Below, piece after piece: positions 1,449 to 64,000 of a DNA stretch of 64,000 bases (position 1 is the first letter of the stretch; every line of letters starts with the position of its first letter). The notes below the pieces were generated by a model. The model did not search any database. It was not told where the DNA came from and saw only the letters and a program-made list of their open reading frames with translations. Source of the DNA: a virus; IMG/VR virus record IMGVR_UViG_3300025849_002481, positions 11,721 to 75,720 of that record. One strand, given 5' to 3'. The position numbers and the translations under genes were made by a program.

Positions 1449-1475
1449 ATTACTATTATACACTAAAACTCTATA

Positions 1476-1910: not shown

Positions 1911-1923
1911 ACTAATATTTACA

Positions 1924-4661: not shown

Positions 4662-4704
4662 AACTATATTTATCGATAAATACAAGTACGGAGAATATAA
4701 CATT

Positions 4705-5463: not shown

Positions 5464-5530
5464 AAACATCCTGAGTTAACGCTAACGTTTTTGGTTCCTT
5501 GTAAATACAAAGTAACAAGGAGGTTCCATA

Positions 5531-5749
5531 ATGTGTAGTCCATTTGTACGTAAAGAAGCTAACCGACTAAACTGGTTGATCAAAGGTAAACTAATTGACA
5601 GATCCTGGAGTGATGAATCAGTTGAACAAATCTACGACTCATATTTTAAAAGACTTTGGGGTAATAACGAGAGAATGGAATACGGCGCCATAGGGTTTGA
5701 AGCCGCATACAAAGCTCGTGAAGCTGAAATATTATCTGAAAAAGGTTGA
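5531..5749 (+). CDS. Hypothetical phage protein
   Basis: 72-aa ORF with AGGAGG SD and an upstream TAAATA box. Confidence 0.65.
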   Translation: MCSPFVRKEANRLNWLIKGKLIDRSWSDESVEQIYDSYFKRLWGNNERMEYGAIGFEAAYKAREAEILSEKG

Positions 5750-5774
5750 CAACACTTACAAACTAAGCTATAAT
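5746..5774 (+). promoter_or_regulatory. Sigma70-type promoter
   Basis: TTGACA-17 bp-TATAAT upstream of the dNMP kinase gene. Confidence 0.8.
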
Positions 5775-5800
5775 ACAATTAAACCTAAGAGGAGTAATGT

Positions 5801-6361
5801 GTGTTACCAAAGCTACTAGTTGTAGGCCACGGCCGTCACGGCAAAGATACTGTTTGTGAAATGCTTGAACGATACGGATATACGTTTCAATCAAGTTCTA
5901 AATTTTGTTCAAAACTTTTTATCTATAACGATTTAAAAGAACAGTATAGTTATGCTGATGAAGAAGAATGTTATGCTGATAGACATAATCATCGAACTGA
6001 ATGGTATAACATGATACATAATTACTGTAAAGATGACTTAGCAAAATTAGGACGCAACTTATTTTCAGAAAACAATATCTATTGTGGATTACGCAATAAA
6101 CGTGAATTTTTTGCAATGCAAAACGAAGAAATATTTGATTATGCTATTTGGGTAGATCGAACAGATCATTTACCTACAGAAGATCCTAGTTCGATGAGTA
6201 TTGAACAATGGATGTGTGATTATACTATTGACAATAATGGTAATCTACAAAGACTAGAAAAGAATGTAGATATTCTTATTAATACCATATTTAAAAATCA
6301 GGGACTAGATCCCCTTGTTTCCACCGCACTCCTTCAACTTGAAGAATCCGTTGACAGTTAG
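5801..6361 (+). CDS. Deoxynucleoside monophosphate kinase-like P-loop protein
   Basis: GHGRHGKDT P-loop, C-terminal DYTIDNNGNL; syntenic position between neck and sheath genes. Confidence 0.7.
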   Translation: MLPKLLVVGHGRHGKDTVCEMLERYGYTFQSSSKFCSKLFIYNDLKEQYSYADEEECYADRHNHRTEWYNMIHNYCKDDLAKLGRNLFSENNIYCGLRNKREFFAMQNEEIFDYAIWVDRTDHLPTEDPSSMSIEQWMCDYTIDNNGNLQRLEKNVDILINTIFKNQGLDPLVSTALLQLEESVDS

Positions 6362-6626
6362 CACATATAGTTTTTAGATTACTAGGACGGCAGTTTTCCA
6401 AATTACCGTCTATATGGAAAACATTAAACTGTTCTGAGTGCTTACTTTTAAATCCACACTTTTCACAATTACGTTTCTTTTCATAGCCTCGTTGTTTCCA
6501 CTTAGGTATTCCATTACCTTTACCATTACGCAAACAACTTTCACATAGCTTACGATAATACGTTTTATTACCTTTTTTGTAATTTATAGCTGCAGGCTTT
6601 TGTCCACATGTGCATAATGGTCTCAT
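6291..6626 (-). CDS. HNH-fold zinc-binding protein
   Basis: CEKCGF...VFHIDGNLENCRPSNLKTICANC. Confidence 0.75.
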   Translation of the reverse strand: MRPLCTCGQKPAAINYKKGNKTYYRKLCESCLRNGKGNGIPKWKQRGYEKKRNCEKCGFKSKHSEQFNVFHIDGNLENCRPSNLKTICANCQRILQVEGVRWKQGDLVPDF

Positions 6627-6739
6627 ATTGTATTTAGCTCACCTTTTTGGTCCCTTTTTCTATGGTATAACAGCATCCTTTTCGTCTACATATGGTAAAT
6701 ACATGTAATAGAATACCCAATCCAGATAGGAGAAACAGA

Positions 6740-9700
6740 ATGGCATTAGTATCACCAGGTGTACAGGTTAGCGTAGTAGACGAAAGTTTTTACACACCCG
6801 CTGAACCAGGTACAGTACCAGTAATTTTTTGTGCAACGGCACAGGATAAAACAAATGCGTCAGGTTCAGGCACAGCACCAGGCACACTAGCACAGAGTGC
6901 AGGTAAGCCATATTTAATGACTTCGCAACGTGACCTAGCTGAAACATTTGGCGATCCAATTTTTCAAATTGACGCAAACAATAACCCAATACATGGCAGT
7001 GAACTTAACGAATATGGTTTACAAGCTGCATACTCTTTCTTAGGAGTAAGTAACAGAGCCTGGGTAGTAAGAGCAGACATTAATTTAGGTTCATTAGAAC
7101 CACAAGCTGCAGCACCAACAGCAGATCCAGTAGACGGAACATATTGGTTAGACACATCAAGTTCATTGTTTGGTATTCAAGAATGGAATAATGCCGCTAT
7201 AACAATTAACGGTGGTCAAACATTTACTAATAAAATTCCAAGAGTAATTACTAAAACAGCAGAAACAGAAGATGCAACAGACGACAATTTTGTTGTAGTT
7301 AAGCGTCCTTTATCATCAATTGGCGAAATTGGCGATTATGCAGTAGTTGCTGTTACTACACTTAATACATTTTGGTATAGAAATACATCAGGAGATTGGG
7401 TACAAGTAGGTAGTGATGCTTGGAGAGATTCATGGCCAACAGTACAAGGTACTAAATCAGCAGCACCAGCAGCTGGTACGTTTTTAATTAACGGTTCTTC
7501 AGTTAGTTGGTCAGCAGCTTCAAATATGACTGACGTTGCTACAGGTATTAACAATTCTGTTCCTTTAGGATACAGAGCAGCCGTAGTTAACGGAAAACTA
7601 GCTATCTTTAGTGATGGTACAGTAAGTGGCTCTGACTCATCTTTAGCAGGACCAGTTGTTATCAGTGAACAAGGCGGAACTACTACAATTGATGCATTAG
7701 GAATTGATGCAGCTACATATTATCCACCAGCACTACAAATTTCTGCGCATACAAGTGTACCAGAATTTAAAGCAACTGATACTTACAACAGACCTACTGG
7801 TAGTATTTGGATTAAAACAACTACACCAAATGCAGGCGCACGTTGGAGAGTTAAGCAGTGGAACAATAACACAAGACTATGGGCAGATATAGCAACACCA
7901 ATATATGATACAGCACAAGAAGCACTAGTACAACTTGATAGAACTGGCGGCGGTGAAAACTTATCAATTGGTGATTTATTTGCTGACAGCAATGTTGCAC
8001 AAGATGTACAACCATTAGGCACATTTAAAATTATGCGTAGAATGGCAGTTGGTTCAACTAGTATAAGAACTAATGCAACAGTAGATTCAGATTTTGTAGA
8101 CCAAGCTGTTCACAACTTCCAAATAGAAGCAACAGCACCGGGTGATGCTGCATTTAGCGCACCAACAACAATAGCGTTTACAGCAAATGATACTGGAGCT
8201 AAAACAGCAATAGCTATTGCTAGTGCAATTACAAATGCAGGTATTTCATATGTAAGTGCCGAAGTTGATAGCGAAAATAGAGTAATTATTAAACACGCTA
8301 AAGGCGGCGAGATGCGTTTAACAGACGGTCAAGGCGCATTTGCATGTTTTACAGCATTAGGCTTTACAGCATATGTTAGTACAGATTCAACTACTACACG
8401 TTTCTTAATGGACGAGCCAGGAGTTGATAACTCTTCAGGTACGCTACAATTTAGAGCAAGTAACTGGGTACCACTAACATATACACCAAGTGCAAATGCG
8501 GTAACACAAGCATCATTAGATGGAACACTTTGGTACAGTTCAATTGTTGACGAAGTTGATATTATGATTAACAATGGAACTAAATGGGTTGGATATCATA
8601 ACTTTAGTTCAGACTATGCAGACTGTGATCCAAAAGGACCGATTGTAAGTGCTACACAGCCAACTAAACAAAGTGATAGCGATGAACTAGAAGAAGGCGA
8701 TCTATGGCTTGACACAAGTGATTTAGAAAACTATCCAGTAATTTATCGTTACAGAAAACTTACTGATAAGTGGGTACTAATCGACAACGGAGATCAAACA
8801 ACTGAAAACGGCATACTATTTGGTGATGCACGTTGGGGAACATCAGGTGCTAATGGTAATACAAAAGCAACAATAGTTGATCTACTAACAGCTGACTACG
8901 TTGATTTTGATTGTCCAGATCCAGCGTTATATCCAAAAGGAATGATGTTGTTTAACACACGTAGAAGTGGATTCAATGTTAAGAAATATTACACTGATTA
9001 TGTAGACAGTGGCGCACAAAATGCTAGAATGAGTAACGAAGAGCAAAGTGCATACGGTTTAGCAGCTAACGGTGTATTCAATCGTTGGGTAACTGAATCA
9101 GCTAACCAAGTTGATGGTTCAGGTAGCTTTGGACGTAAAGCACAGCGTAAAGTTATTTTACAAGCAATGCAGTCAGTTATTAATGACAATGATGAAATTA
9201 GAGATGACGAGTCACGTATCTTTAACTTGATTAGTTCACCTGGATATCCTGAACTTATTGGTGAAATGGTTACATTAAACTATGATAGAGGATTAACAGG
9301 ATTTGTAGTTGGGGATAGTCCAGCAAGACTACTACCAAATGCAACATCACTTAACAATTGGGCAACTAACGCTAGACTAGCTGTTGAAGATAACGACGAC
9401 GGACTTGTTACACGTGACGAGTACCTAGGACTATTTTATCCATGGGGATTCACAAGTGATAATGTAGGTAATAACGTTGTTGTTCCACCAAGTCACATGA
9501 TGCTAAGAACTATTGCACTAAGTGATCAAGTTAGCTATCCATGGTTTGCACCAGCAGGTACAAGACGCGGCGGAGTTACAAATGCAAGTTCAACAGGTTA
9601 CATTAGTAGCGAAGGAGAATTTGTAAGTGTAGCACTAAACGAAGGTCAAAGAGATACATTATATGCACAAGGCGTTAATCCAATTACGTTTATTACAGGT

Positions 9701-53985: not shown

Positions 53986-54256
53986 ACCACCAAGTAAAAT
54001 ATATGCTATACAAGCATATTCAAAAACCAACAACAAGCTCAAGCAGGAGTTTGATCAAGACGCACTGATTGCTCCCTACAAGCATACTACAGCTGAACGA
54101 GAAGCCAAATTGAAGGCAGAGAGTCTAGCACGTAGATTAAATAACATAAAGCACCAAGGTGCAACAGATTGGGTAGCACGTTATCCTTTGCAAGACTATC
54201 GTCCAAGTGGCATAGTAAGAGCAAGTCAGATACGCAATCCAAGAACAACGAGATAG
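53975..54256 (+). CDS. Hypothetical protein, paralog of 50145..50420
   Basis: Start MSNRPP at 53975 after TATAAATA and AGGAG. Confidence 0.65.
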   Translation: MSNRPPSKIYAIQAYSKTNNKLKQEFDQDALIAPYKHTTAEREAKLKAESLARRLNNIKHQGATDWVARYPLQDYRPSGIVRASQIRNPRTTR

Positions 54257-54265
54257 GAGCGGCAC

Positions 54266-54610
54266 ATGCCACTAAGCGTAACAGTACACGGAATAGCCAC
54301 AGTCGCTGGACCCAATCAAAACGGAAGATGGGCAACAGCAGATATAACCTCAACAGACGGAACCGACAATGTGATATACACAGTACCTGCTGATGTTGAC
54401 TATGTTATCGCAGCCATAAGCATACTCAATAGAAGTGATGAAGCAGCAACCAATGTAAACGTTGCTATTGCTAATGCAGATGTTCCCCTAGACGTTGAGT
54501 TTATTGAATGGAAAACATCAATGGTACCACGTGGCGTACTAGAGCGCACACAGTTGTTGCTGAACCCCGGACAAAGAATCATAGTCAGAGTAGGCGACTA
54601 CACCCCGTAG
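54266..54610 (+). CDS. Hypothetical beta-rich virion-type protein
   Basis: YTVP...NR...IE......P.GVLERT.L pattern. Confidence 0.6.
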   Translation: MPLSVTVHGIATVAGPNQNGRWATADITSTDGTDNVIYTVPADVDYVIAAISILNRSDEAATNVNVAIANADVPLDVEFIEWKTSMVPRGVLERTQLLLNPGQRIIVRVGDYTP

Positions 54611-54847
54611 TCCTAGAAGCGCGAAGCGCCTGCGCCAGAAAGCCGCTCGCGGAAAGCCCTAAGCTAGAAGAGCTACGAAGTAGATTTAAGCAAAAATTTC
54701 AGTCTTAAACTACGCACTTAACTTACTACAGTATCATTGCACATATGCACACTATATAAAAAGTTTTCCAACAACCATAGCGACACGCCTATTGCAACAC
54801 TGTGCAATACCCCGTACGTACTGATTAACAAAAAGATGAGTCTTATT

Positions 54848-55060
54848 CTACAATCGAGTGACTGTGTACCTAGAGTTTCCTGCGAGTTTTAACTGAGCTA
54901 GTGTACAGTGAGCAGCTGATTCAAACTCTAGTATGTTGTATGCACTTTGACTAGCTTCTATCTTAGAGTCTACAAACAGTTCTATGACTAGTGCATGTAC
55001 TAGCGCATCAATTGCTTGCTTGTTGGTAACTGGTTCAAACTGTAGTAGTAACTTGTGCAT
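54848..55060 (-). CDS. Hypothetical protein
   Basis: ATG at 55060 (MHKLLL) lies 5 nt after a TAAATA box, like the other late genes. Confidence 0.5.
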   Translation of the reverse strand: MHKLLLQFEPVTNKQAIDALVHALVIELFVDSKIEASQSAYNILEFESAAHCTLAQLKLAGNSRYTVTRL

Positions 55061-55455
55061 ACAGTTATTTAACGTGTGCGTAGAGTAGCGCACAGCTAAG
55101 AGGTTCTTGTTTTACACACATAAAGAGACAAGCTCTTACACACTCGCTGGTCGCTTGTGTGTGTTAGCTTCGCCAAAAGGGTATTTGTAGAGTAAAAAAT
55201 TGTGCGCAAAAAAATTTGGTGGAGTACTTACACTAGTAGTGAGGTTGCAGTGTACAGCGCCAAATGGGGTCTGCAGTGTAAAAAGTTGCGCTACGAAAAT
55301 TTTAGGTGAAGTACTTACAGAAGTTGGGTGGTGATTTTGCCTCTGTATGTTTTTAAAAAGCGGTCATTAAGCACAGCTAAGTTGTTGTTTTAATTATATA
55401 TTTACACCCCCCCACCCCCTCGAGAAATTATTTTTTTAGAAAAATATTTTTTTAT

Positions 55456-55495
55456 TTTGAAAAGAAAAAAGGAATAGTATCTCTACTACTCCCTT
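55456..55495 (-). terminator. Rho-independent terminator ending the early-gene array
   Basis: Minus strand AAGGGAGTAGTA-GAGA-TACTATTCCTT followed by TTTTCTTTT. Confidence 0.75.
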
Positions 55496-55587
55496 CTCCC
55501 CTAGCGTTGTGCTAGTCTCCTTGTTGTCTAGGATTGCCTGCTACCCTACGTAACTCAGCTACCCCCTAGTGGGTATAACTACTACCC

Positions 55588-55953
55588 CTAGTCAGCTCTT
55601 GACCCTGCGTATGCTGTAAAGCCTGCGGCCTTGTAGACCTTAGCGGCTGCTTCAGCACCTGCTTCTTTGGTGCTCATGCACTGTGTGCCTAGTCCACTTG
55701 GGTTCCATATTGAGTAAGCACCTGTGTAGTCCTTCTCAAAGCCTGCTTGCTTCATGCGCTTGCCCAGCTTGGTGTTGCCTTTGATGCCATAGATGTTAAC
55801 CCAAGCAAAGCCACAGTAGGCATGCTCGCCATGTGTGTCCAAGTGTGCCTGTGCTGCATCACGTGCATGTTGTAGAGCAGCTTCCCTAATCATTACTAGG
55901 TCTGCTACAGTGTAATCGTTAAGTTCAACAGTTGATGTGTTAATAGTTGTCAT
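55588..55953 (-). CDS. Early hypothetical protein
   Basis: CGFAWV...SRAD motif; own promoter and GAGGGC leader. Confidence 0.75.
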   Translation of the reverse strand: MTTINTSTVELNDYTVADLVMIREAALQHARDAAQAHLDTHGEHAYCGFAWVNIYGIKGNTKLGKRMKQAGFEKDYTGAYSIWNPSGLGTQCMSTKEAGAEAAAKVYKAAGFTAYAGSRAD

Positions 55954-56034
55954 AGTGTTTAGCCCTCTGCTTTGTTTAATTTACTCTTACAGTGTACACT
56001 CTATTATGTACACTGTCAACCTTTTTCTTACCAA

Positions 56035-56304
56035 TTAGTAGATGCACTCTGGAGTGTCTAGCCAGTTGTTCAAACAGTATGCTTCTAGCTCTCGTTGTAC
56101 TTGTGCAAGGAACTTGGTCTTCTTGCGCACATATGCCATAGGAGCTTCACCATCACAGTGTAGGTTCTCTGGGCTTAGTTCTGATGCAATAGCATTCATC
56201 AAGTCATTTGCATCTGTTTGTGCTAGTGGGAAGTTCATAGCGCCCTGGCCGAAGATTGCGTTCCACTTGTTCTTTTGTTCTACGTATGCTTCTAGGTTTT
56301 TCAT
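56035..56304 (-). CDS. Early hypothetical protein
   Basis: Start MKNLEAY at 56304 (the promoter lies inside the longer called ORF); LSPENLHCDGE motif. Confidence 0.75.
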   Translation of the reverse strand: MKNLEAYVEQKNKWNAIFGQGAMNFPLAQTDANDLMNAIASELSPENLHCDGEAPMAYVRKKTKFLAQVQRELEAYCLNNWLDTPECIY

Positions 56305-56410
56305 TGTGTGCCCTTGCTTTGTTAATATACTTACTATTATAAGGTCACTTTGGGTGTGTGTCAACCTTTTATTTGCCAAAATCGTAAATTAATTTCCACC
56401 GGCTGTAGTC

Positions 56411-56537
56411 AAAAGAAAGCCCAGGAGTGTTTGGACGAGGGCACATCCTACTCCTGGGCGCATGTGTAAGCAAGCTTCTTAGAGGGCTGAGGGGCGCCTG
56501 CTGTACACTTTTAAGCACTGTGTGGTCGCTGAGGGCA
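56411..56537 (-). ncRNA. Putative structured 3'-UTR / small RNA with GCCCUC loops, ending in a terminator
   Basis: Two hairpins whose G-U pairs work only on the minus strand; loops GCCCCUCAGCCCUC and UGCCCU; U-tract at 56411-56418. Confidence 0.55.
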
Positions 56538-57536
56538 TTAGCGATTCTGCATCACAGTGTTTTCTGCCATAGCTTCCCAACGTTGTGGAAATGCTACAGC
56601 AAGCTCGGCAACTTTAAGTACTGTTCTCAATGACAGCTCACGTAGTTGCTTCTTATTAATATCAACGAAATCCATTACGTCTTCTTTGACATCATCTGAA
56701 AGTTTGTAGCTATCAAGCATGCCGTCTTGTACAACTTGCTTGATGCGCAACATCTTGTCCTTCTCACTCTTGATTGTGAGATCCATGTAGTGACAACGAC
56801 TCTCTAGTGCTTCCAAGTGCGAACGCAACTTCTTGCTCTTTACATCACGGAAGTCTAGGTTGGTAATAAAGATTGCACTACCTTTGAACTCGAAGCTGTC
56901 CGGCACACCTTCATTACGCAACTTGAAGCTGTCTGTGTTCCAGTGGATTGTACGCTTCTTCTTAGAGTCTAGTGCAGCTTTTAAAATATTAAGTGCAAGA
57001 GGCTCTTCGAACACAGCATCACAGTCATCGAACACAAGTACATTGTCTTGGTCTTTGAAGTTGAACAGTTTACAGTAGAGTCCGATTGGGCTCATAGCAC
57101 CTTTGACAACTTCATACTTCTGTCCACCACCTAGTGCGGCAACAGTGTCGTATCTGTCAAGTACTTCTTCTACACCATGTGACTTACCAACTCCTGGAGG
57201 ACCTGATACGATCATAGCACTTACAACACCCTTCTTGACAGCTTTGGTCATATCTTTCAACATGTCAAAGCGTTCACGGATGCGTTCTACAATCTCTTCA
57301 TCTGTTTCGGTTACAGTGTTTACTTTGGCTCCGGCAGCTTCATAAGCTGATGTGCCATCACACATGATCTTAATGTTACGCTCTGGAAAGCCTGGAACGG
57401 CTCTGCCATCTACTGTTACGTAGCCACCCTTGGCGCCTACTTTAAATTCTTGTACAAGTGGAAACACCATACCAGCTAGGTCGACGTCATTGCCTCTAAT
57501 CTTGTATGTGCCTTCTTTGATTCTAATGTTTGTCAT
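56538..57536 (-). CDS. AAA+/P-loop ATPase
   Basis: GPPGVGKS, VFDDCD, LKAALD, FITN, ALESRC. Confidence 0.85.
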   Translation of the reverse strand: MTNIRIKEGTYKIRGNDVDLAGMVFPLVQEFKVGAKGGYVTVDGRAVPGFPERNIKIMCDGTSAYEAAGAKVNTVTETDEEIVERIRERFDMLKDMTKAVKKGVVSAMIVSGPPGVGKSHGVEEVLDRYDTVAALGGGQKYEVVKGAMSPIGLYCKLFNFKDQDNVLVFDDCDAVFEEPLALNILKAALDSKKKRTIHWNTDSFKLRNEGVPDSFEFKGSAIFITNLDFRDVKSKKLRSHLEALESRCHYMDLTIKSEKDKMLRIKQVVQDGMLDSYKLSDDVKEDVMDFVDINKKQLRELSLRTVLKVAELAVAFPQRWEAMAENTVMQNR

Positions 57537-57588
57537 ATTGTTTGCCCTTCAGTTATTTAATTAATGCCTAATTATTAAACTTAGTATA

Positions 57589-57864
57589 CTACGACATCTG
57601 TGGAATGTCAATCTCTTTTTTAACAAACCGAGCAATTAAATTCATGTCCTCGGCTGTAAAGTCCTTTTCTAATTTAGGACCAAACGCATTGCCCAACTTG
57701 GTTAGCATAGAACCTACGTGGCTCATATCGTTCAAGAGTTTGAAGTCTTCGTCCTTCATGCCCTTACAGTTTGCGTATTCGCTCATGTCGCACATCTTGC
57801 GGCCAATCGATGCCAGTTGTTTGTGCTGTGCGCTTACTTCATAAATTGATGTGTTGTTTTTCAT
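57589..57864 (-). CDS. Early hypothetical protein
   Basis: Own promoter and GAGGGCA leader. Confidence 0.75.
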   Translation of the reverse strand: MKNNTSIYEVSAQHKQLASIGRKMCDMSEYANCKGMKDEDFKLLNDMSHVGSMLTKLGNAFGPKLEKDFTAEDMNLIARFVKKEIDIPQMS

Positions 57865-57940
57865 AGTGCCCTCATTTCCTAATTGTTATATACATTATAC
57901 GATCATTAAGAGTGTTTGTCAACCCCTAATTTGCCAAAAA

Positions 57941-58141
57941 TTAATCTAAATCGCAAACCCAACCGCCGGCTGTACCTTCGTACTCTGCAACCAATGTGCC
58001 ACCTAGTCCGAACGGTGAAGCAATCTCTGCAACTGGTTTGCCGGTGTGTTCACATATGCCCTGACCTAGCAGCTCAACCTTCTTAAAGCCTTCGTCTGTG
58101 CCAAAGCCACGGTTTACAAAGTGTACGTTCAGTTCTTGCAT
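57941..58141 (-). CDS. Early hypothetical protein
   Basis: Own promoter and GAGGGCA leader. Confidence 0.75.
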   Translation of the reverse strand: MQELNVHFVNRGFGTDEGFKKVELLGQGICEHTGKPVAEIASPFGLGGTLVAEYEGTAGGWVCDLD

Positions 58142-58208
58142 GTGTTGCCCTCTTGCTTAACTTATATATACACTATAGCACAGGTGCGCTATAGTGTCAA
58201 CCTTTTTT

Positions 58209-58550
58209 TTACATACTCCAATATGATTCTGATGATGGGCTCATATAGCCCGGAGTGTTCACAGTCTCTGTGATTGGCTTTTCTTTAGCTTCGTCCATGA
58301 TGCTATATACAGTCCGACTCTTCTCTATGTTCTTGTGGAAGTATGCCGCTTCTGCTATACCATAACGGAACATAGGATCGTTCACACTGTCTAGCAAGTC
58401 TGCTCTATAACGTTTGCTCATGCGTGTGAGTGCCGCTTTGGCCGCAGGCATTGTTTTATAGCTCTGGCGGTGATCAGGACGAACTACACCGTCCCGCTTG
58501 TTGAGCTTGCCCATGATGTAAGTTGATGATTTTTCGTAAATGTAAAACAT
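58209..58550 (-). CDS. Early hypothetical protein
   Basis: AAKAALTR and NTP...SPSSESYWSM motifs; own promoter. Confidence 0.75.
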   Translation of the reverse strand: MFYIYEKSSTYIMGKLNKRDGVVRPDHRQSYKTMPAAKAALTRMSKRYRADLLDSVNDPMFRYGIAEAAYFHKNIEKSRTVYSIMDEAKEKPITETVNTPGYMSPSSESYWSM

Positions 58551-58621
58551 TGATTGCCCTCTTTGTTTTTAAGTTTGTATATACACTATAGCACATAAAT
58601 GCTATAGTGTCAACCTTTTTT

Positions 58622-59014
58622 TTAACTTTTATACATACGCAAATCTAAATCCGCTCCGTCGTAATCGTGTGCATCTACTTGCTTGTAGTAAAAATCTAGT
58701 ATGTCGTGCTTTTTACAGTAATCAAAAAAGTGTTCGCTTATTCCTTCGTTAATACAATCATCATCGTATCTGTAATCTATTGCAGTTGCAAAAGCAGTAG
58801 CAAGCGTTTTATCTTTGCGTGTAAAATAGTTTTCTAATAGTTGTGTAGTTTGTACACACAATTCTTCTGTTGCACTAATCCAATCGTACACATTTTCCAT
58901 ACCGTGTTCTTCGCAAGCAAAATCTTCCGCACTTACAAGTTCAACTTTATAATTCATAGTGTGTGTTAAAAAATTACATAAATGTTTTAATTCACGTGTA
59001 GTAATGTTTTGCAT
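58622..59014 (-). CDS. Early hypothetical protein
   Basis: Start MQNITT at 59014 after GAGGGCA. Confidence 0.75.
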   Translation of the reverse strand: MQNITTRELKHLCNFLTHTMNYKVELVSAEDFACEEHGMENVYDWISATEELCVQTTQLLENYFTRKDKTLATAFATAIDYRYDDDCINEGISEHFFDYCKKHDILDFYYKQVDAHDYDGADLDLRMYKS

Positions 59015-59096
59015 ATTGCCCTCATGCTTTGTTATTATTATAGTTACACTATAGCACAAGTGCGCTATAGTGTCAACCTTTTTTTTACCAAAAAGT

Positions 59097-59369
59097 TTAA
59101 CTTTCGTATTTTACACCTACTAAACGCAAGTAGCGTCCTCCAAATGTAGTATGCACTTTATCACATCCTACTAGCAACTTTAACCATTTACAGTCACCTT
59201 CTGTAAAACGTTCTCCTACAATTCCAAAACACAAGTTGCGTTTGTCTGCAACTTTTGCATTGTCTTTCCAAACAACGTTAGTCCAACTGTTCCAAAAACT
59301 AGCATCCTTTTCTGCTAGTACTGTTGCAACAAGTTTACGTGCTTGTAGTGTGTTTAGTTTATTTTGCAT
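59097..59369 (-). CDS. Early hypothetical protein
   Basis: GAGGGC leader, TTGCAT-17-TATATT promoter. Confidence 0.7.
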   Translation of the reverse strand: MQNKLNTLQARKLVATVLAEKDASFWNSWTNVVWKDNAKVADKRNLCFGIVGERFTEGDCKWLKLLVGCDKVHTTFGGRYLRLVGVKYES

Positions 59370-59477
59370 TTAAAGCCCTCCAAATGCTGTTACGTTATAA
59401 TTTAATATAGCACCGGTTTGCGCATAATGCAACCATTTTTTTAGTTTGTTACGTTACGTTATTTGGATAAAAAGAGG

Positions 59478-59507
59478 TTGACAACCCCGGCTGTTGTGTG
59501 TTATAAT
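59478..59507 (+). promoter_or_regulatory. Plus-strand sigma70 promoter facing the tRNA cluster
   Basis: TTGACA-18-TATAAT with an extended -10 TG. Confidence 0.65.
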
Positions 59508-59597
59508 GGATTGATGCCCGAAGGTTCTGGACCGGCTGTACCTACTTCGGTTCGGAAGGGTCTTACTGTGAGGGCGGCATGCCCTTCCGAACGTATT

Positions 59598-59684
59598 TGG
59601 TGCTCGCACCCGGACTCGAACCGGGACGCCGTAATCAGCGACAGATTTTAAGTCTGTTGTGTCTACCTATTCCACCATGCGAGC
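59598..59684 (-). tRNA. tRNA-Leu(UAA)
   Basis: Cloverleaf; anticodon arm ACAGA-CTTAAAA-TCTGT, long variable arm, GGTTCGAGTCC, encoded CCA. Confidence 0.95.
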
Positions 59685-59689
59685 GGTGT

Positions 59690-59766
59690 TGGCCTGCCCT
59701 GCAGGATTCGAACCTGCGACCCACAGCTTAGAAGGCTGTTGCTCTATCCAGCTGAGCTAAGGGCAG
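59690..59766 (-). tRNA. tRNA-Arg(UCU)
   Basis: Anticodon arm ACAGC-CTTCTAA-GCTGT, GGTTCGAATCC, CCA. Confidence 0.95.
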
Positions 59767-59768
59767 TC

Positions 59769-59845
59769 TGGTACGCCTGGAGGGACTTGAACCCCCAACC
59801 TGCGGATTATGAGTCCGACGCTCTAACCAATTGAGCTACAGGCGC
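59769..59845 (-). tRNA. tRNA with CAU anticodon, probably Ile2 (lysidine) rather than Met
   Basis: CGGA-CTCATAA-TCCG arm, CCA. Acceptor stem has C4-G69 and C5-G68 (TilS determinants in E. coli); no initiator GGG/CCC stem. Confidence 0.85.
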
Positions 59846-59974
59846 AAAACTTTATTTCTAGTTGGGTGTTAAGATGATCCTCTTCTATCTTACAAAATGA
59901 TTTCCAATGAGCCCCACCGCTCTCAATTGGATCGTCACCGGCTGTCACGGTCACGCCCTAGGTTGTAGAGTTGC

Positions 59975-60304
59975 CTACGCTGTGATTATGTCCTCGGACT
60001 CAGCGGTAATCGGCTGTACCTCTACTTTCGTTGTTTCGCTCTGCTCCGGCTGTGCCTTCACATTTCTTACAACAAACTCTGCAATCGCACTCTGTTGAGC
60101 TTCGCTTTGGAAGTTCGGGTGTGCCATTAATACTTTACAGACATCTGCTTTTGACATTTTTTCGCCAAGTTCGATCAACTCAATGTCGTCGTGTCCGTTC
60201 TTAGCTAAGATCTTGAACCTACCTACATAGTCATTCGCGAACCTTACCTTGGTCACTCCGTTGTGTGTTGATGTTCCTGCTACTTCAAAAGTTTTAGTTG
60301 TCAT
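59975..60304 (-). CDS. Early hypothetical protein
   Basis: VAGTS...G..KVRFAND motif; own promoter. Confidence 0.75.
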   Translation of the reverse strand: MTTKTFEVAGTSTHNGVTKVRFANDYVGRFKILAKNGHDDIELIELGEKMSKADVCKVLMAHPNFQSEAQQSAIAEFVVRNVKAQPEQSETTKVEVQPITAESEDIITA

Positions 60305-60374
60305 ATTTGCCTCTCATTGTTTTAGTTTATATTATACATTATAGCACCAATTGCCACAATGGTCAACCTTTTTT

Positions 60375-60842
60375 TTAACTATTTTGGCTAGCCGCAATCC
60401 GTGCTTCCATAGCCGCTAGTTCGATTGGAACCATAACGTCTAAGAAGTTAAAGATTGGATAACCGTTTTCGTCTTTGGCACCGTGATCGTTAACTAACCA
60501 CTCTTTGCCATTCCAAAGGTAGGCATACTCTTCCATGTCATCAATCCAACTTGGAATGTCTGCATACTCTTGAATGCTCAGCTGCTCGCCTCGGTCTCGG
60601 CTGTAAAACAATGTCCAATCGTCTCGTTGTGTCGAACGATCGTCAAAGTCTTGTGGATCACCAATCTGCTCACCTAGTGAACTGATTGAACCTAGTGCAA
60701 CCAACGCTTCGATCTTATCGATGTCCGTGTAGTTCTCCAACAGGATCTTTCCGTTGTTTGCGACATAGCCGTCCCAGTGACAGTATACTGAAACAATCTT
60801 GCCTTCTTTGGTCTTCATTGCGATGTTTGAACGTGTTGCCAT
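60375..60842 (-). CDS. Early hypothetical protein
   Basis: MATRS.I...SVYCHWDGY and EEYAYL motifs; own promoter. Confidence 0.75.
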   Translation of the reverse strand: MATRSNIAMKTKEGKIVSVYCHWDGYVANNGKILLENYTDIDKIEALVALGSISSLGEQIGDPQDFDDRSTQRDDWTLFYSRDRGEQLSIQEYADIPSWIDDMEEYAYLWNGKEWLVNDHGAKDENGYPIFNFLDVMVPIELAAMEARIAASQNS

Positions 60843-60912
60843 TTTGTTTGCCCTCTAGCGTTTGTTTAACTTACTCTTATAATATAGCACCAAAGTGCTC
60901 AGTTGTCAACCC

Positions 60913-61116
60913 CTAATTTACCGAAACTTGATATCCATATTGCCAATGGCCGTTGTCTAGATCAAACACACAACGATCCTTGTCATCTACATAGACCTTA
61001 TCCATGTCTATGCCATACTTGTCGCCGGCTGTAGCACATAGCTCAATGCCTTTTACCTTAGCTTCACCAAACCGGCTGTTGACCTTAGTTCCTATTTTAA
61101 TATATGTTCTGCTCAT
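60913..61116 (-). CDS. Early hypothetical protein
   Basis: Own promoter and GAGGGCA leader; LDNGHW.YG.Q. Confidence 0.75.
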   Translation of the reverse strand: MSRTYIKIGTKVNSRFGEAKVKGIELCATAGDKYGIDMDKVYVDDKDRCVFDLDNGHWQYGYQVSVN

Positions 61117-61177
61117 AGTGCCCTCATTTCCTAATTGTTATATACAGTATAGCTTCAAGTGATCGAGATGTCAACCT

Positions 61178-61756
61178 TTATTTTGCCAATTCTCGTTCTT
61201 TTTCTTCTTCCATTTCCTCTTCGATCCATTCACGCCTATTCTCAATAAGCTCAAACTCGTCGTCAAGTTTCTGGAATAGCTCTGGAGTGTCTTCAAGAGC
61301 ACAAGTGCCTTTGACTACCGCTTCGCACCATTCGCTCAGGCCTTCCATATATTGATCATCGCCATCTGTGTAGATACCTGCAAAGTCCATACCACCTTCT
61401 TCATAGGTTGCCTCAATCGAACAGTTGTCCATATCGTCTAACCAGGTGTTGTATGCTTCAATGGGAGGTGCCCACGCACTATCAAACCAACCTGTGATAT
61501 GACTTGTGCCATCTTTGTTGTCCACATACTCTAGACCTTCGTCTGAGATGTCCCACTTGGTCCCCCAGTTGCTAACATGCCAGTCATACCAGTTCGGACC
61601 ATCACTAGGAGCGGTTGTGCCTTCTAGTTCTTTGGGCATCGGAACCATTGCATCAAGTAGAGCAAAGTCCTCTCCATCATGTGCATCATCCCACAGTTGC
61701 TTGATTGTGTCTGTTGGACCACTAATTGTGATTGAGTTCGAACACCAATTAGGCAT
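61178..61756 (-). CDS. DUF1281/YubB-like ferredoxin-fold protein
   Basis: MPNWCSN, WY.W...NWGTKWD, FDSAWAPP, YEE.G..FAG. Confidence 0.75.
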   Translation of the reverse strand: MPNWCSNSITISGPTDTIKQLWDDAHDGEDFALLDAMVPMPKELEGTTAPSDGPNWYDWHVSNWGTKWDISDEGLEYVDNKDGTSHITGWFDSAWAPPIEAYNTWLDDMDNCSIEATYEEGGMDFAGIYTDGDDQYMEGLSEWCEAVVKGTCALEDTPELFQKLDDEFELIENRREWIEEEMEEEKERELAK

Positions 61757-61925
61757 AGTCAGTCTCCTCTAAAAAACGTGGTGAAAGTTCATTGCAATCA
61801 AGCATATCTTCGACATCATCTGTGCTCATATACTTGAGTGCCATAGTCAGCATATCTTCGGCTGTGACGAAACCGTCGTCGATCAGCTCTAGTGCTGTGT
61901 CTCTTGCGTTAGTTGGTCTTTTCAT
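61749..61925 (-). CDS. 58-aa early protein (not in ORF track)
   Basis: MKRPTNARDTALELIDDG...FLEETDYA; own promoter, GAGGGCA leader, overlaps the next start. Confidence 0.7.
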   Translation of the reverse strand: MKRPTNARDTALELIDDGFVTAEDMLTMALKYMSTDDVEDMLDCNELSPRFLEETDYA

Positions 61926-61990
61926 ATTGCCCTCATTTCCTAATTGTTATATACAGTATAGCGTCAATTGATCCAGTTGTCAACCTCTTT

Positions 61991-62206
61991 TTAACCAATT
62001 TCCTCTACTTCGCGACCTTGTGCAAAGTCCATCAAGTCTGCGGCCAATGCCGCGGCCTGTGCTCGTGTCAATTGCAAGTGATCAAAGAACTCTGTGCCTA
62101 CAGGTCGCTCTTTACGCATTGTAACCTGGACGCTGGTGCCTTGACCGCCGTTTGCGAAACGGGTTAATGAAACGCCTTGTGCGTGTGATTTCAAATCTGT
62201 TGACAT
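61991..62206 (-). CDS. Early hypothetical protein
   Basis: Own promoter, GAGGAG SD. Confidence 0.75.
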   Translation of the reverse strand: MSTDLKSHAQGVSLTRFANGGQGTSVQVTMRKERPVGTEFFDHLQLTRAQAAALAADLMDFAQGREVEEIG

Positions 62207-62279
62207 CTGTGTCTCCTCTTTGCCCTAATTGTTATATACAGTATAGCACCTAGATGCTACACTGTCAACCTCTTTTTGC

Positions 62280-62621
62280 TCAAAAGTCCTGTGGATAACC
62301 TTTGGAACGCATCTCCGGCTGTAGGGGTGATACCACGATGACCTGCTCTTTGAGGAAGTCACGATAGTCCTCATCCTCCGGCAGTTGTTCGATCCACTCT
62401 TGCTCAGTGAGGAACTCTGTGGGGAACTCCTTGCAGCTGATGTTGTTCTCCATAGTGATCGCAGCTACGAACGCGGCCGCATCCTGCACTCGATCCAAAC
62501 CCTGGACCAAGTATTCTGAACCGCCTTTGAACTTCCAATAGGCGTTGCCTGATGAAAACTTACCGTCCTCACAGTGTGCGCCATAGTTCTCTAAAAATTG
62601 TGTTTTGATTACGAAATTCAT
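62280..62621 (-). CDS. Early hypothetical protein
   Basis: TQ..ENYGAH...YWKFKGG motif; own promoter. Confidence 0.75.
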   Translation of the reverse strand: MNFVIKTQFLENYGAHCEDGKFSSGNAYWKFKGGSEYLVQGLDRVQDAAAFVAAITMENNISCKEFPTEFLTEQEWIEQLPEDEDYRDFLKEQVIVVSPLQPEMRSKGYPQDF

Positions 62622-62683
62622 ATTGCCCTCTTTTCCCTAACTGTTATATACAGTATACCTTCAAAACCGGCTGCTGTCAACCT

Positions 62684-62911
62684 CTAATTTACCAAAAAGT
62701 CCTCGTCAACGATGAAACTGTATACGGCCTCCCTAACGGCTGTATCGGTTGCTTCTTCGTAACCGTCGGCTGTAGCCAGCTTCTCCAATTCACGAACGGT
62801 CCATGCCCAAGCACTTTCAGCACCATCTTCGGCTGTTAACTGTAGACCGGCTGTGGCGATCCGTGTGACCAATTCATTGCCCTCGGCTGTGAACATTGCG
62901 AAATCTTTCAT
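62684..62911 (-). CDS. Early hypothetical protein (first gene of the array)
   Basis: MFT.EGN...EATDTAVRE motif; own promoter. Confidence 0.75.
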   Translation of the reverse strand: MKDFAMFTAEGNELVTRIATAGLQLTAEDGAESAWAWTVRELEKLATADGYEEATDTAVREAVYSFIVDEDFLVN

Positions 62912-63018
62912 ATCGTGCCCTCCTAATCTCTAACTGTTATATACAGTATAGCCTCAAACCTCGGCTGTGTCAACCTTTATTTTACCAAAATGTGAAAAAA
63001 GTTTCCTCCGGCTGTAGA

Positions 63019-63046
63019 ATTTAACATAATAAACTTTATACGCAAA
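63019..63046 (-). other. dif-like XerC/XerD recombination site 1
   Basis: TTTGCGTATAA-AGTTTA-TTATGTTAAAT; XerD arm 11/11 and XerC arm 8/11 versus E. coli dif. Confidence 0.85.
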
Positions 63047-63092
63047 ACCTTCGGCTGTAGGGGCTAAGTCATTGAAATCATTGATCAAAAGA

Positions 63093-63120
63093 ATTTAACA
63101 TAATAAACCTTATACGCACA
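63093..63120 (-). other. dif-like XerC/XerD recombination site 2
   Basis: TGTGCGTATAA-GGTTTA-TTATGTTAAAT; XerD arm 11/11 and XerC arm 9/11. Confidence 0.85.
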
Positions 63121-63401
63121 CCAAGTCCTGCCCACCACCGGCTGTTATTATACAGTCTCTCTCCCCTAGTGTCAACCGTTCTTTTGCACCGATCACAAAA
63201 GAATCTGAATCCTCAATAGAATCAACAGCTTACAGTTCGAATGAGCAAAAGAACAGTTCTCTTCCTCGCTTATACCAAAAACTTCAATGATATCAATAGC
63301 TTAGGATTTACAGCCGGGGCCCCATGTAACCTCTTGAAAACAAAGAGAAAATCAAAAACCCAATACAAACAATGACTTAGAAGACCACCTTGATTCGCTG
63401 C

Positions 63402-63625
63402 AGTGAGAGAGTGAAAAATTCAAAATGACCCCTGATCTGCTGCAGTGAAAGGTTCAAAGTGAGCATAACAGTGAGTTCGAAAGTGAAAGTGACAGTGAGA
63501 ACCATAGTGACTCGTACAGTGAGAACCATGAACCCCTCTTAGAGCTATACAGTGAGTAAGGAGTCTCTTGTTATAGTGTAGTGAGTATAGTGTACAGTGG
63601 GGTACAGTGAGGGGCCGAAGGCCCC
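63402..63625 (+). repeat. AGTGA iteron-like repeats ending in a GC hairpin
   Basis: 13 AGTGA copies, six in exact 12-bp phase (63458-63518); GGGGCC-GAA-GGCCCC at 63611-63625. Confidence 0.75.
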
Positions 63626-64000
63626 AGAATCTCCAATGATTTCAATGGTTTACACCATTAAGTTAAGGTACTGAACCATGCTTTAAGGGTGTTTTAAGGG
63701 TGGCGGAATAGGTGTACAATACTGGTTGGTGTACATTTTTCGGCACATGCCCTACAGTTTACCCACGATCTATAGCCAAAAAAATTTTTCTTGAGCACGG
63801 TGACGAGAGGCATAGTTCAAATACTTTTCATAGTTGTTTTCATAGTTGTATAACCTACCCAATCACCATTCTATATAGTGTAGTTTCAACGACTTCTATG
63901 CTAGACTTACTCTGTGTATAGCCGAGATCTCTACTAGGTTCTAGAGGTCAAACACCCAGGTGACCGCAGCGGGGCCTAGGGTCTACGCAGCTAACCACAC

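What the first reader, a model, noticed from the sequence alone, without database searches (positions are those of the whole stretch)
56400..63316. Strand-polarised CGGCTGT gradient converging on the dif/IHF locus
Seen: 22 copies, all on the same strand, within about 6.8 kb; I noticed only about 3 copies (either strand) in the preceding 56 kb. Density rises steeply rightward, with 9 copies in 62737-63145, and the only copy beyond that (63310) is reversed. Copies occur in promoter spacers, in intergenic DNA and in all three frames of genes (T-A-x; Q-P at 60011, 60047 and 62316; S-R at 60598 and 61073). This indicates selection on the DNA rather than on the protein. Known: polar oligomers such as Chi (RecBCD/AddAB) and KOPS (FtsK) behave this way, but this word matches neither E. 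coli motif. Inference: it may be a Chi-like shield protecting a first-injected genome end near 63.15-63.3 kb, a translocase-orienting signal for the dif sites, or a loading array for a phage DNA-binding protein.
Basis: partly seen in the sequence, partly recalled or inferred. Interest (0 to 1): 0.9.

Follow-up and report, generated by a model that had tools for sequence, protein, structure and literature searches.

The report
One-way DNA word array, phage early genes
An uncultured marine giant phage and at least seven relatives write the exact word RCAGCCG 20-30 times, always pointing the same way, through their first block of early genes, with one conserved copy pointing the other way just outside it; it is a selected DNA signal whose reader is unknown.

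Summary
CGGCTGT occurs 22 times on + in 56400-63145, once reversed at 63310, and 4 times elsewhere in 64 kb (2.8 expected in all). The real word is R-CAGCCG-R on the minus strand. That is the sense strand of a leftward early block with about 15 consensus sigma-70 promoters. Counting two GCAGCCG copies, the field has 24 copies (55644-63145) in all three frames and in intergenic DNA.

Seven related marine phages carry the same field. Pooled over three strong fields, CAGCCG is 79 forward and 0 reverse. Copies persist at homologous sites three to five times more often than neutral drift predicts. All have one reversed copy beside an IHF-like site, upstream of the first promoter or of a tandem dif-like pair.

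Tests against interpretations:
- Host FtsK/KOPS is rejected: bacteria with this dif type use GGGNAGGG (135:14 converging), not this word (128:160).
- Known Chi words are absent.
- No candidate host genome shows over-representation with skew.
- No RNA structure surrounds the reversed copy.
- Promoter placement is explained by free slots.

Best reading (about 0.33): a Chi-like directional checkpoint for a DNA-tracking enzyme entering at the hub. An oriented protein-binding (stoperator-like) array is close behind.

The scan noted similar arrays, with other words, in other phages.

The parts
55644..63145 (-). Forward field: 24 copies of R-CAGCCG on the minus strand. On + they read CGGCTG[T/C], starting at 63139, 63052, 63009, 62962, 62884, 62848, 62830, 62767, 62737, 62668, 62316, 61859, 61073, 61026, 60598, 60047, 60011, 59939, 59533, 59488, 57967, 57651, 56400, 55644. 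Ten lie in the first 500 nt; density then falls to about 1-3 per kb.
   Evidence: Shuffles give 2.8 for the whole window.
63310..63316 (+). Single reversed copy (ACAGCCG on +) in a GC-rich context. The equivalent copy is present in all eight field-bearing phages, 140-190 nt upstream of the first promoter or dif pair.
63327..63339 (-). IHF-consensus-like box (minus strand TTCAAGAGGTTA; relatives have ATCAA-N4-TTAG) directly beside the reversed copy.
   Evidence: Alignment of 8 phages. The consensus WATCAANNNNTTR is from my own knowledge.
63147..63175 (-). Outermost early promoter P1 (TTGACA-17-TATAAT). The first forward copy starts 2 nt after its -10 box.
63019..63120 (-). Two tandem dif-like 28-mers (63093-63120 and 63019-63046): TGCGTATAA, a 6-nt spacer, then TTATGTTAAAT. 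Forward copies lie before, between and 3 nt after them.
55588..63175 (-). Early block: about 15 near-consensus sigma-70 promoters, 16 small ORFs of unknown family plus one AAA+ ATPase (56538-57536), and three tRNAs (59598-59845), all leftward. GC is 0.42-0.45, against about 0.35 in most of the window.
62684..62911 (-). 75-aa ORF holding five copies, all as Thr-Ala-x. L027's homologue lacks four of them through clustered substitutions. L468's homologue keeps four.
63390..63610 (.). Iteron-like array of RCAGTGAG on + (TCACTGY on minus). Relative L057 instead has a 12-nt-period array of DnaA boxes upstream of its dif pair, in the same non-coding region.
63799..63830 (-). Nearly invariant 30-bp element (AAGTATTTGAACTATGCCTCTCGTCACC) at the head of the early block throughout the phage family. 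It is single-copy where found. Many contigs break at it.

Best explanation
The array is a directional DNA signal that works like Chi. An enzyme that tracks along duplex DNA enters at or near the non-coding hub at about 63.15-63.9 kb, either at a DNA end or at a rolling-circle tail formed there. Moving leftward into the early block, it meets 5'-YCGGCTGY-3' on the + strand from the word's 3' side.

Each encounter has some chance of switching the enzyme, for example from degrading to sparing or recombining. Ten copies in the first 500 bp would make the switch almost certain before the early genes are lost, and the sparser copies further in would act as back-ups. The conserved reversed copy, and the few reversed copies beyond it, would do the same for the other arm.

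The most likely reader is a RecBCD/AddAB-type helicase-nuclease of the unknown gammaproteobacterial host. A phage-encoded reader is a real alternative, because the preferred base at position -1 differs between close relatives.

Shown: the word, its polarity, its confinement, its gradient, its conservation and the switch point. Inferred: that a tracking enzyme reads it, which enzyme, and that an end forms at the hub.
For: - The word is exact and short. CAGCCG is 79 forward and 0 reverse in 19.5 kb pooled. It is preceded by a purine in 79/79 copies and followed by one in 68/79. Most single-mismatch variants are near background; CAGCAG (25/1) and CAGCCT (11/1) are the exceptions.
- Copies lie in all frames and in intergenic DNA. 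They were created by clustered substitutions.
- Copies are kept at 10/17 and 9/12 homologous sites, against about 15-19% expected neutrally.
- Density is highest next to the switch point and decays away from it, in the window, in L027 and in L468.
- Polarity flips at one conserved point. By my tally over seven phages, all 10 copies upstream of it are reversed and all 96 downstream are forward.
- Two upstream reversed copies lie antisense to conserved genes that run the same way as the early block. Orientation there does not follow transcription.
- Copy number, word length, strand purity and end-ward clustering match published phage Chi arrays: LLS has 20 of 23 sites in the active orientation, clustered at the right end, and MD8 has 32 to 0 (PMC12315714). 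Chi-rich phages concentrate Chi between origin and packaging site (PMC3784561).
- The + strand orientation is the one that paper describes as active for an enzyme entering from the right.
- No helical phasing is seen in the copy spacings (my reading of the coordinates).
- Placement inside promoters is explained by the only unconstrained slot in the spacer.
Against: - The host is unknown, and no tested genome supports the word as a host Chi. It is not over-represented in 5 candidates with the same dif type. It shows no polarity around 120 chromosomal dif sites (128:160).
- Among 301 Gammaproteobacteria the only strong outlier (G099, about 6-fold) shows no co-orientation.
- The word matches no known Chi.
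- The cultured relative PA5oct has no early or terminal cluster of the Pseudomonas Chi.
- The phage carries T4-like recombination genes (UvsW-like helicase). Phages with their own recombinases tend to avoid Chi (PMC3784561).
- The systematic A-to-G shift at position -1 between the window and L027 fits a co-evolving reader better than a conserved host enzyme.
- A DNA end at the hub is not shown.
- There is no forward copy in the 850 bp of non-coding DNA between P1 and the contig end.
Confidence: 0.33

Rival explanations
1. An oriented binding-site array for a sequence-specific, probably phage-encoded, DNA-binding protein. Copies in and beside promoters would act as operators. Copies inside transcription units would act as orientation-dependent roadblocks to RNA polymerase, as stoperators do. 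The inverted copy beside the IHF site would pair with promoter-proximal copies through a DNA bend. This would shut off the early block, either at the early-to-middle switch or in a plasmid-like carrier state.
For: - All 96 copies inside the early blocks are co-oriented with transcription.
- Copies straddle the P1 start site in 5 phages, and follow the -35 box in 7 promoters.
- Intergenic gaps are enriched for copies: 38% of copies in 24% of the DNA, and 23 of 98 copies lie 38-69 nt before the next -35.
- The lineage-specific shift at position -1 fits co-evolution with a phage protein.
- No host-genome signal was found.
- A conserved IHF-like box sits beside the inverted copy.
- Stoperators are asymmetric, dispersed, present in promoters and between genes, and work in one orientation only (PMC9283540).
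- The dif pairs and a DnaA-box array in L057 hint at a circular, plasmid-like stage.
Against: - Only 3 of about 15 promoters per phage hold a copy, and four promoter intervals in the window have none.
- Several units carry their only copy after the gene or near its end. Every gene has its own consensus promoter, so the array could not silence the block.
- Copies show no bias toward the 5' end of units.
- The fixed positions in promoters are the only free slots, because the -10-proximal half of the spacer is conserved in all early promoters.
- 62% of copies are inside coding sequence, five of them in one 228-bp gene at a cost in amino acids. That differs from the intergenic 13-mers of L5.
- No DNA-binding fold was found among the early proteins.
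- Extra upstream copies are reversed relative to their genes.
Confidence: 0.25
2. A hub-centred signal for the phage's own replication or packaging machinery. The non-coding 63.2-63.9 kb region would be an origin and/or packaging site. The words, pointing away from it on the leading strand, would guide or pace a helicase, terminase or similar motor.
For: - The hub holds lineage-specific iteron-like arrays (TCACTGY here, DnaA boxes in L057), an IHF-like box, tandem dif-like sites and an invariant 30-mer.
- The word's polarity flips there in all eight phages.
- Many contigs from independent assemblies end within 120 nt of the 30-mer, including one of 261.8 kb.
- PA5oct has long terminal repeats rich in early genes (PMC7318152).
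Against: - I know of no precedent for a replication or packaging motor reading an 8-bp word dispersed over 8 kb.
- Contig breaks are equally explained by a graph hub at a perfectly conserved 30-mer, which shows a 4-7-fold depth spike with divergent loose ends.
- The 30-mer is single-copy and internal in contigs of 275 kb and 237 kb.
- The far side has only 1-3 reversed copies, so the arrangement is very lopsided.
Confidence: 0.15
3. An RNA-level signal. The word is read in the early mRNAs, for example as a cleavage or binding site for a nuclease or RNA-binding protein, or as the target of a small RNA carrying CGGCUGU. The last version would explain the purine at position -1 through A-U and G-U pairing.
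For: - Every copy in the block is on the sense strand, and the field is roughly coextensive with the early transcription block.
- Earlier scan notes report sense-strand words in the early blocks of other phages (unverified).
- The reversed copy carries the full complement CCGGCTGTA of the consensus TACAGCCGG.
Against: - The first forward copy straddles the start site of the outermost promoter in 5 phages, so it cannot be intact in that RNA.
- In L468, L544 and L480 forward copies precede any recognisable sigma-70 promoter.
- Some copies lie in promoter spacers, and one lies after a terminator-like hairpin (56400).
- No conserved RNA structure surrounds the reversed copy: 0 predicted pairs in 8 sequences.
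- Rfam finds only tRNAs in this region.
- Upstream reversed copies are antisense to their genes.
Confidence: 0.1
4. A KOPS-like array that steers the host FtsK translocase to the phage dif-like sites to activate XerCD.
For: Read as CGGCTGY, the arrows converge on the dif pair from both sides in the window, L468, L544 and L480. A forward copy starts 3-4 nt after the XerD arm of the second site in all four.
Against: - Bacteria with this dif type use the ordinary KOPS: GGGNAGGG converges 135:14 on 120 chromosomal dif sites, while this word is 128:160.
- In Glaciecola the word shows only a weak skew, in the opposite direction.
- The phages carry almost no GGGNAGGG near their dif pairs: 3 in 73 kb.
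- L027, L534, L540 and L509 have the field without dif sites, and most dif-bearing relatives have no field.
Confidence: 0.03

Closest known systems
Terminally clustered, single-orientation Chi arrays in phages (E. coli lambdoid LLS; P. aeruginosa MD8; Chi-rich lambdoids of Bobay et al. 2013). PMC12315714, PMC3784561.
   Same: A short exact asymmetric word, 20-32 copies, almost pure single orientation, written through genes and spacers alike. Density rises toward one place in the genome. The orientation is the one that is active for an enzyme entering from that side.
   Different: - The word matches no known Chi, and the host is unknown.
- No host-genome excess or skew was found.
- The phage is a T4-like jumbo myovirus with its own recombination genes, not a recombinase-less lambdoid.
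- The array is confined to an 8-kb early block.
- It is bipolar around a dif/IHF hub.
- No genome end is shown there.
Operators and stoperators of cluster A mycobacteriophages (L5 gp71, TipsytheTRex repressor). PMC9283540.
   Same: Asymmetric sites, many copies, found both in promoters and within transcription units. Orientation is tied to the direction of transcription. Specificity diverges between related phages.
   Different: - The word is 8 bp, not 13 bp.
- 62% of copies are inside coding sequence.
- Most promoters lack a site.
- No repressor has been identified.
- The phage is apparently lytic and T4-like.
- Density falls off from one hub.
KOPS/FtsK and chromosomal dif (own knowledge; control).
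   Same: Polar words converge on a XerCD site from both sides.
   Different: The host-type KOPS is GGGNAGGG and is absent from the phage. The field occurs without dif and dif occurs without the field.
Lambda cosB (R3-I1-R2-R1) and other IHF-assisted nucleoprotein sites (own knowledge).
   Same: An inverted copy and direct copies of a short protein-binding word flank an IHF bend site next to a cis-acting hub.
   Different: Those arrays span about 200 bp, not 8 kb. No terminase binding or cut site is shown here.

Membership tests
Chi (RecBCD/AddAB crossover hotspot instigator) | Short (5-8 nt) asymmetric word, active in one orientation only | tested here: met
   R-CAGCCG-R is 79 forward and 0 reverse in 19.5 kb pooled. 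Orientation purity is shown; activity is not.
Chi (RecBCD/AddAB crossover hotspot instigator) | Identical to a Chi sequence established for some bacterium | tested here: not met
   It differs from the E. coli, Haemophilus, Bacillus, Lactococcus, Staphylococcus and Pseudomonas words, and none of those is enriched in the field.
Chi (RecBCD/AddAB crossover hotspot instigator) | Over-represented and replication-co-oriented in the host chromosome | tested here: inconclusive
   The host is unknown. There is no excess or polarity in 5 candidates, in 120 pooled dif regions (128:160) or in 301 sampled Gammaproteobacteria. The one 6-fold outlier is not co-oriented.
Chi (RecBCD/AddAB crossover hotspot instigator) | Recognised by the host helicase-nuclease, which then stops degrading | not testable with these tools
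   This needs the host enzyme, or an in vivo Chi assay.
Phage terminal Chi arrays (LLS/MD8 type) | Clustered next to the DNA end that is open to RecBCD | tested here: inconclusive
   A gradient toward the hub is shown. An end at the hub is not: only assembled contigs were available, and they break at a conserved 30-mer.
Phage terminal Chi arrays (LLS/MD8 type) | Phage lacks its own recombination module | tested here: not met
   A UvsW-like helicase and a T4-like replication set are present in the window. Only about 21% of the genome is held.
Stoperators (cluster A mycobacteriophages) | Asymmetric sites whose orientation follows the direction of transcription | tested here: met
   96/96 inside early blocks. 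Two copies in upstream same-strand genes are reversed.
Stoperators (cluster A mycobacteriophages) | Sites in promoters (operators) and in short intergenic gaps, placed so as to block expression | tested here: not met
   3 of about 15 promoters hold a copy, 62% of copies are in coding sequence, four units have none, and several have a copy only at the gene's end.
Stoperators (cluster A mycobacteriophages) | Cognate monomeric two-domain repressor encoded by the phage | tested here: inconclusive
   No HTH or other DNA-binding family was found among the 16 early-block proteins. Most of the genome is not held.
KOPS (FtsK-orienting polar sequences) | The word is the one that converges on chromosomal dif in the host group | tested here: not met
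   GGGNAGGG is 135:14 and CGGCTGY is 128:160 around 120 dif sites of the phage's dif type.
KOPS (FtsK-orienting polar sequences) | Always associated with a dif site | tested here: not met
   There is a field without dif in L027, L534, L540 and L509. There are dif pairs with no strong field in 12 loci, of which L480 has two copies and L536 four.
Origin iterons / pac-site repeats | Direct repeats confined to a few hundred bp of a cis-acting site | tested here: not met
   Ten copies lie in 500 bp, but 14 more extend over 7 kb of genes. The separate TCACTGY array at 63390-63610 fits this description better.

The most novel reading that the evidence does not exclude
The word is a phage-specified 'self' orientation signal read by a phage-encoded tracking enzyme. 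Together with the tandem dif sites, the IHF box and the iteron or DnaA-box arrays, it would make the head of the early block a miniature chromosome-style organising centre, with origin, dimer resolution and polar words. That would imply that these T4-like marine jumbo phages pass through a circular, XerCD-resolved replicon stage. Polar early-block word arrays, seen with other words in several unrelated phages in this scan, would then be a general and undescribed layer of phage genome organisation.
Probability: 0.15. Interest if true: 0.85.

Novelty: new variant of a known kind. Interest (0 to 1): 0.62.

Why it matters
Polar short words such as Chi, KOPS and stoperators are among the few DNA signals that tell a moving enzyme which way it is going. 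Each was found in a model organism. Here an unassigned word with the same statistics is maintained by selection in a widespread family of uncultured marine giant phages. It overrides codons, and it flips at a conserved hub that also carries host-type dif sites.

If it is the host's Chi, it reveals that sequence for an uncultured marine gammaproteobacterium. It would also show that T4-like phages can shield their early genes this way.

Either way the word is a cheap, testable marker for the early block and for the hub. The early promoters are sigma-70 consensus, so orientation-swap experiments are feasible in E. coli.

Tried and rejected
1. **Apparent 78:0 strand skew in Glaciecola contig G007:C2.** This was a listing artefact. 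The reverse-complement query shows opposite-strand matches in the same interval. Merged counts are 23 vs 31 before dif and 37 vs 28 after it.
2. **G099.** It has a 6-fold excess over the reversed control, but neighbouring sites are 28 co-oriented and 26 opposed (my tally). The excess is GCAGCCGR, as Ala-Ala codon pairs would give.
3. **IMG/VR scan for GGTTGACA-R-CAGCCG.** Chance single hits and higher-GC phages with codon-level bias.
4. **IMG/VR scan for three close co-oriented copies.** Ala/Thr-rich repeat proteins and tandem repeats. No unrelated phage had a dispersed field.
5. **Exact 20-mer around the reversed copy.** Only L027's contig in IMG/VR, and nothing in the metagenome contigs.
6. 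**Physical terminus.** Only Logan contigs were available. They break at every repeated promoter, so starts and ends cannot be read.
8. **De novo search for other polar words in 42 related early blocks.** Only promoter and ribosome-binding-site words appeared, plus the DnaA-box array of L057.
9. **PA5oct as an analogue.** GCTGGCGC is 11 against 1 for the control, but scattered on both strands.
10. **Type III restriction avoidance.** This explains polarity but not a 20-30-fold local enrichment, and the conserved inverted copy would create the vulnerable head-to-head pairs.
11. **Primase recognition, consensus RNA polymerase pause and 16S rRNA 530-loop mimicry** (GCAGCCG occurs in GTGCCAGCAGCCGCGG; own knowledge). 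I considered these by reasoning only. None fits the flanks or the 8-bp exactness.
12. **Fixed position in promoters as evidence for operators.** Withdrawn after one search showed that positions 1-8 of the spacer are the only unconstrained slot.

Three genomes in the 301-genome sample (G049, G306, G151) are unpublished. They enter only the overall ratio range and no named result.

Full report
**Where the window lies.** The window is the last 64 kb of a 75.7 kb IMG/VR contig that CheckV rates about 21% complete. It encodes a long tail sheath, baseplate proteins, TerL, a DnaB-type helicase, a UvsW-like helicase and a DnaG-type primase. TerL is 54% identical to that of Pseudomonas jumbo phage PA5oct and about 43% identical to Rak2/BF-like phages. 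The phage occurs in marine and estuary metagenomes from 11 studies.

**The observation.** CGGCTGT has 27 matches in the window, against 2.8 +/- 1.7 in shuffles. Twenty-two are on + between 56400 and 63145, one is reversed at 63310, and four lie elsewhere. There are none in the remaining 11.7 kb of the contig. K-mer analysis shows that the unit is CAGCCG on the minus strand, preceded by a purine. Two GCAGCCG copies (62668, 55644) raise the field to 24 forward and 1 reverse. Ten copies lie in the first 500 nt, and density then falls to 1-3 per kb.

**Setting.** The genes under the field are on the minus strand, so the word is on their sense strand. The block from 63175 to 55588 holds about 15 near-consensus sigma-70 promoters (GGTTGACA-17-TATAxT), 16 small ORFs and three tRNAs. 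Its proteins match no informative family except an AAA+ ATPase.

**Not a protein signal.** Ten copies encode Thr-Ala, three Gln-Pro and two Ser-Arg, and nine are intergenic. In the 75-aa first gene all five copies read Thr-Ala-x. L027's homologue has unrelated codons at four of those places, differing by clustered substitutions.

**Relatives.**
- Sixty related IMG/VR loci were fetched through the AAA+ gene. Only the closest carry the word: L027 (31 forward and 1 reverse in 9 kb), L009 (10 and 0 in 3.3 kb) and, weakly, L013.
- In L027's whole 115.6 kb record, 31 forward copies lie at 1002-8977 and one reversed copy at 831. Only 8 copies (4 on each strand) lie in the other 106 kb. Its co-oriented promoter block runs from 972 to about 9800.
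- A metagenome scan with a family-wide 30-mer added L468 (24 forward, 1 reverse), L534, L540, L509, L544 and L480.
- More distant relatives have the same promoter-dense block without any comparable polar word.

**Specificity and selection.** Pooled over the window, L027 and L468 (19.5 kb), CAGCCG is 79 forward and 0 reverse. The base before it is a purine in 79/79 copies, and the base after it in 68/79. Most single-mismatch variants are near background; CAGCAG (25/1) and CAGCCT (11/1) are the exceptions. Alignable DNA between these phages is about 76% identical. Even so, the core is kept at 10 of 17 (window vs L027) and 9 of 12 (window vs L468) homologous sites, where neutral survival would be about 15-19%. 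At shared sites the preceding base is A in the window and G in L027. This lineage-wide shift fits a reader whose preference differs between the two lineages.

**The switch point and the hub.**
- The order of features is conserved: an invariant 30-bp element, about 450-500 nt, one reversed copy in a GGCCCC-CGGCTGTA context, 140-190 nt, the first promoter and/or a tandem pair of dif-like sites, then the forward field.
- By my tally over seven phages, all 10 copies upstream of this point are reversed and all 96 downstream are forward.
- Beside the reversed copy all eight phages keep ATCAA-N4-TTAG (one mismatch in the window). This matches the IHF consensus as I know it.
- Between the 30-mer and the reversed copy lie lineage-specific short-repeat arrays: TCACTGY in the window and L027, and a 12-nt-period array of DnaA boxes in L057.
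- These are origin-like or packaging-site-like features, but nothing here proves either.

**Is there a genome end?** My contig, L027's and L023's stop within 300 nt of the 30-mer. So do many metagenome contigs, including one of 261.8 kb. However, Logan contigs from four studies show a 4-7-fold depth spike on the element, with divergent loose ends. The element is also single-copy and internal in contigs of 275 kb and 237 kb. An assembly-graph hub at a perfectly conserved 30-mer explains the breaks, so a terminus is neither shown nor excluded. PA5oct does have 39-kb terminal repeats rich in early genes (PMC7318152).

**DNA level or RNA level?**
- The first forward copy begins 2 nt after the -10 box of the outermost promoter in five phages. 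It cannot be intact in that transcript.
- In L468, L544 and L480 the forward copies begin right after the second dif site, before any recognisable promoter.
- In L540 and L509 the genes beyond the hub run the same way as the early block, yet their two copies are reversed, that is, antisense. Two copies is a small sample.
- No conserved RNA structure surrounds the reversed copy, and Rfam finds only the tRNAs.
- I therefore read the signal as acting on DNA.

**The dif connection.** The two 28-mers at 63019-63120 match both arms of the chromosomal dif of many marine Gammaproteobacteria (TGCGTATAA-TGTATA-TTATGTTAAAT) but have other spacers. Tandem dif-like pairs occur in 16 loci of this family, most of them without the field, and L027 has the field without them. 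The two features are therefore separable. The pooled test is clear: around 120 bacterial dif sites of this type GGGNAGGG converges 135:14, E. coli Chi 40:22, and CGGCTGY 128:160. The phages carry almost no GGGNAGGG near their dif pairs. The host-FtsK reading is therefore rejected.

**The Chi reading.**
- The geometry and statistics match the phage Chi arrays described in 2013 and 2025. For an enzyme entering from the hub side, the + strand orientation is the active one.
- The gradient, and the filling of every free slot near the head, are what a signal recognised only some of the time would need.
- All tests that could have supported it came back empty. No known Chi word is enriched. Candidate hosts show no excess with skew. 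One apparent 78:0 skew was a listing artefact. No unrelated phage had the same array. PA5oct has no analogous cluster.
- The phage's own recombination genes and the position -1 shift count against a host reader.

**The stoperator reading.** An earlier scan note pointed me to stoperators, and the literature confirms their defining features (PMC9283540). Copies do sit in three head promoters at fixed positions. But the -10-proximal half of the spacer is conserved in all early promoters, which leaves only positions 1-8 free. Most promoters have no copy, four units have none, and several have one only at the gene's end. The array could not silence a block in which every gene has its own consensus promoter.

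**Verdict.** This is a real, selected, orientation-specific DNA word, bipolar around a conserved hub, and its reader is unknown. I rank the readings as follows:

| Reading | Confidence |
|---|---|
| Chi-like directional checkpoint | about 0.33 |
| Oriented protein-binding array | about 0.25 |
| Replication or packaging motor signal | about 0.15 |
| RNA-level signal | about 0.10 |
| Host FtsK (KOPS-like) | about 0.03 |

The scan has noted the same kind of object, with different words, in several other phages. I did not check those notes.

Noticed in passing
window 63019-63120; also L468, L544, L480, L057, L014, L017, L440, L441, L451, L465, L497, L526, L530 (pairs); L514 and L536 (one site found): Tandem dif-like 28-mers, 75-105 bp apart and in direct orientation, are a family-wide feature at the head of the early block. 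The XerD arm TTATGTTAAAT is perfect. The XerC arm is TGCGTATAA in the field-bearing phages that have the sites (window, L468, L544) and in L057, and TGCGCATAA in the others, including L480. One L017 site differs from the E. coli dif, as I remember it, only in the spacer. A lytic-looking T4-like jumbo phage carrying XerCD sites suggests a circular stage that needs dimer resolution.
   Followed up: partly
window 63799-63830 (minus strand): A nearly invariant 30-bp element (AAGTATTTGAACTATGCCTCTCGTCACC) is found in over 120 marine metagenome contigs (TARA and GOS among them) and in 13 diverged IMG/VR relatives. It is single-copy, and contigs often break at it. It is a candidate cis-acting site (packaging, terminus, origin or a special promoter).
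   Followed up: partly
L057:769-865 and 1931-1951: Eight or nine co-oriented DnaA boxes (CTGTGGATAA) with a 12-nt period lie just upstream of that phage's dif pair, and two more lie before its first early promoter. Single DnaA boxes also sit in intergenic gaps next to the polar word in L027, L468, L009 and the window (62290).
   Followed up: partly
window 63390-63610: An array of about 10 copies of RCAGTGAG on + (TCACTGY on minus). L027 has a similar array at the same place, and more distant relatives have other short repeats there. It looks like iterons.
   Followed up: no
window 62640-62660, 62925-62950 and other early promoters: Many early promoters share a palindrome over the -10 box and the start site (TATACTGTATATAACAGTTAG; ACTGT-N5-ACAGT). 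A conserved G-A at spacer positions 13-14 is also seen. The palindrome is a candidate operator for a dimeric regulator, separate from the polar word.
   Followed up: no
window 54000-64000 versus the rest: The early block is 0.42-0.45 GC, against about 0.35 for most of the window. GC and AT skew change sign where gene orientation flips, at about 55 kb.
   Followed up: no
PA5oct NC_071039.1, whole record: The proposed Pseudomonas Chi GCTGGCGC occurs 11 times, against 1 for the reversed control, in this 33%-GC phage. The copies are scattered on both strands.
   Followed up: no
L540:1-1130 and L509:1-1120: Three conserved small acidic proteins (62-66, 86-92 and 109-112 aa) are encoded just upstream of the 30-mer, on the same strand as the early block. 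A search for relatives of the 109-112-aa protein in IMG/VR found only one distant relative.
   Followed up: partly
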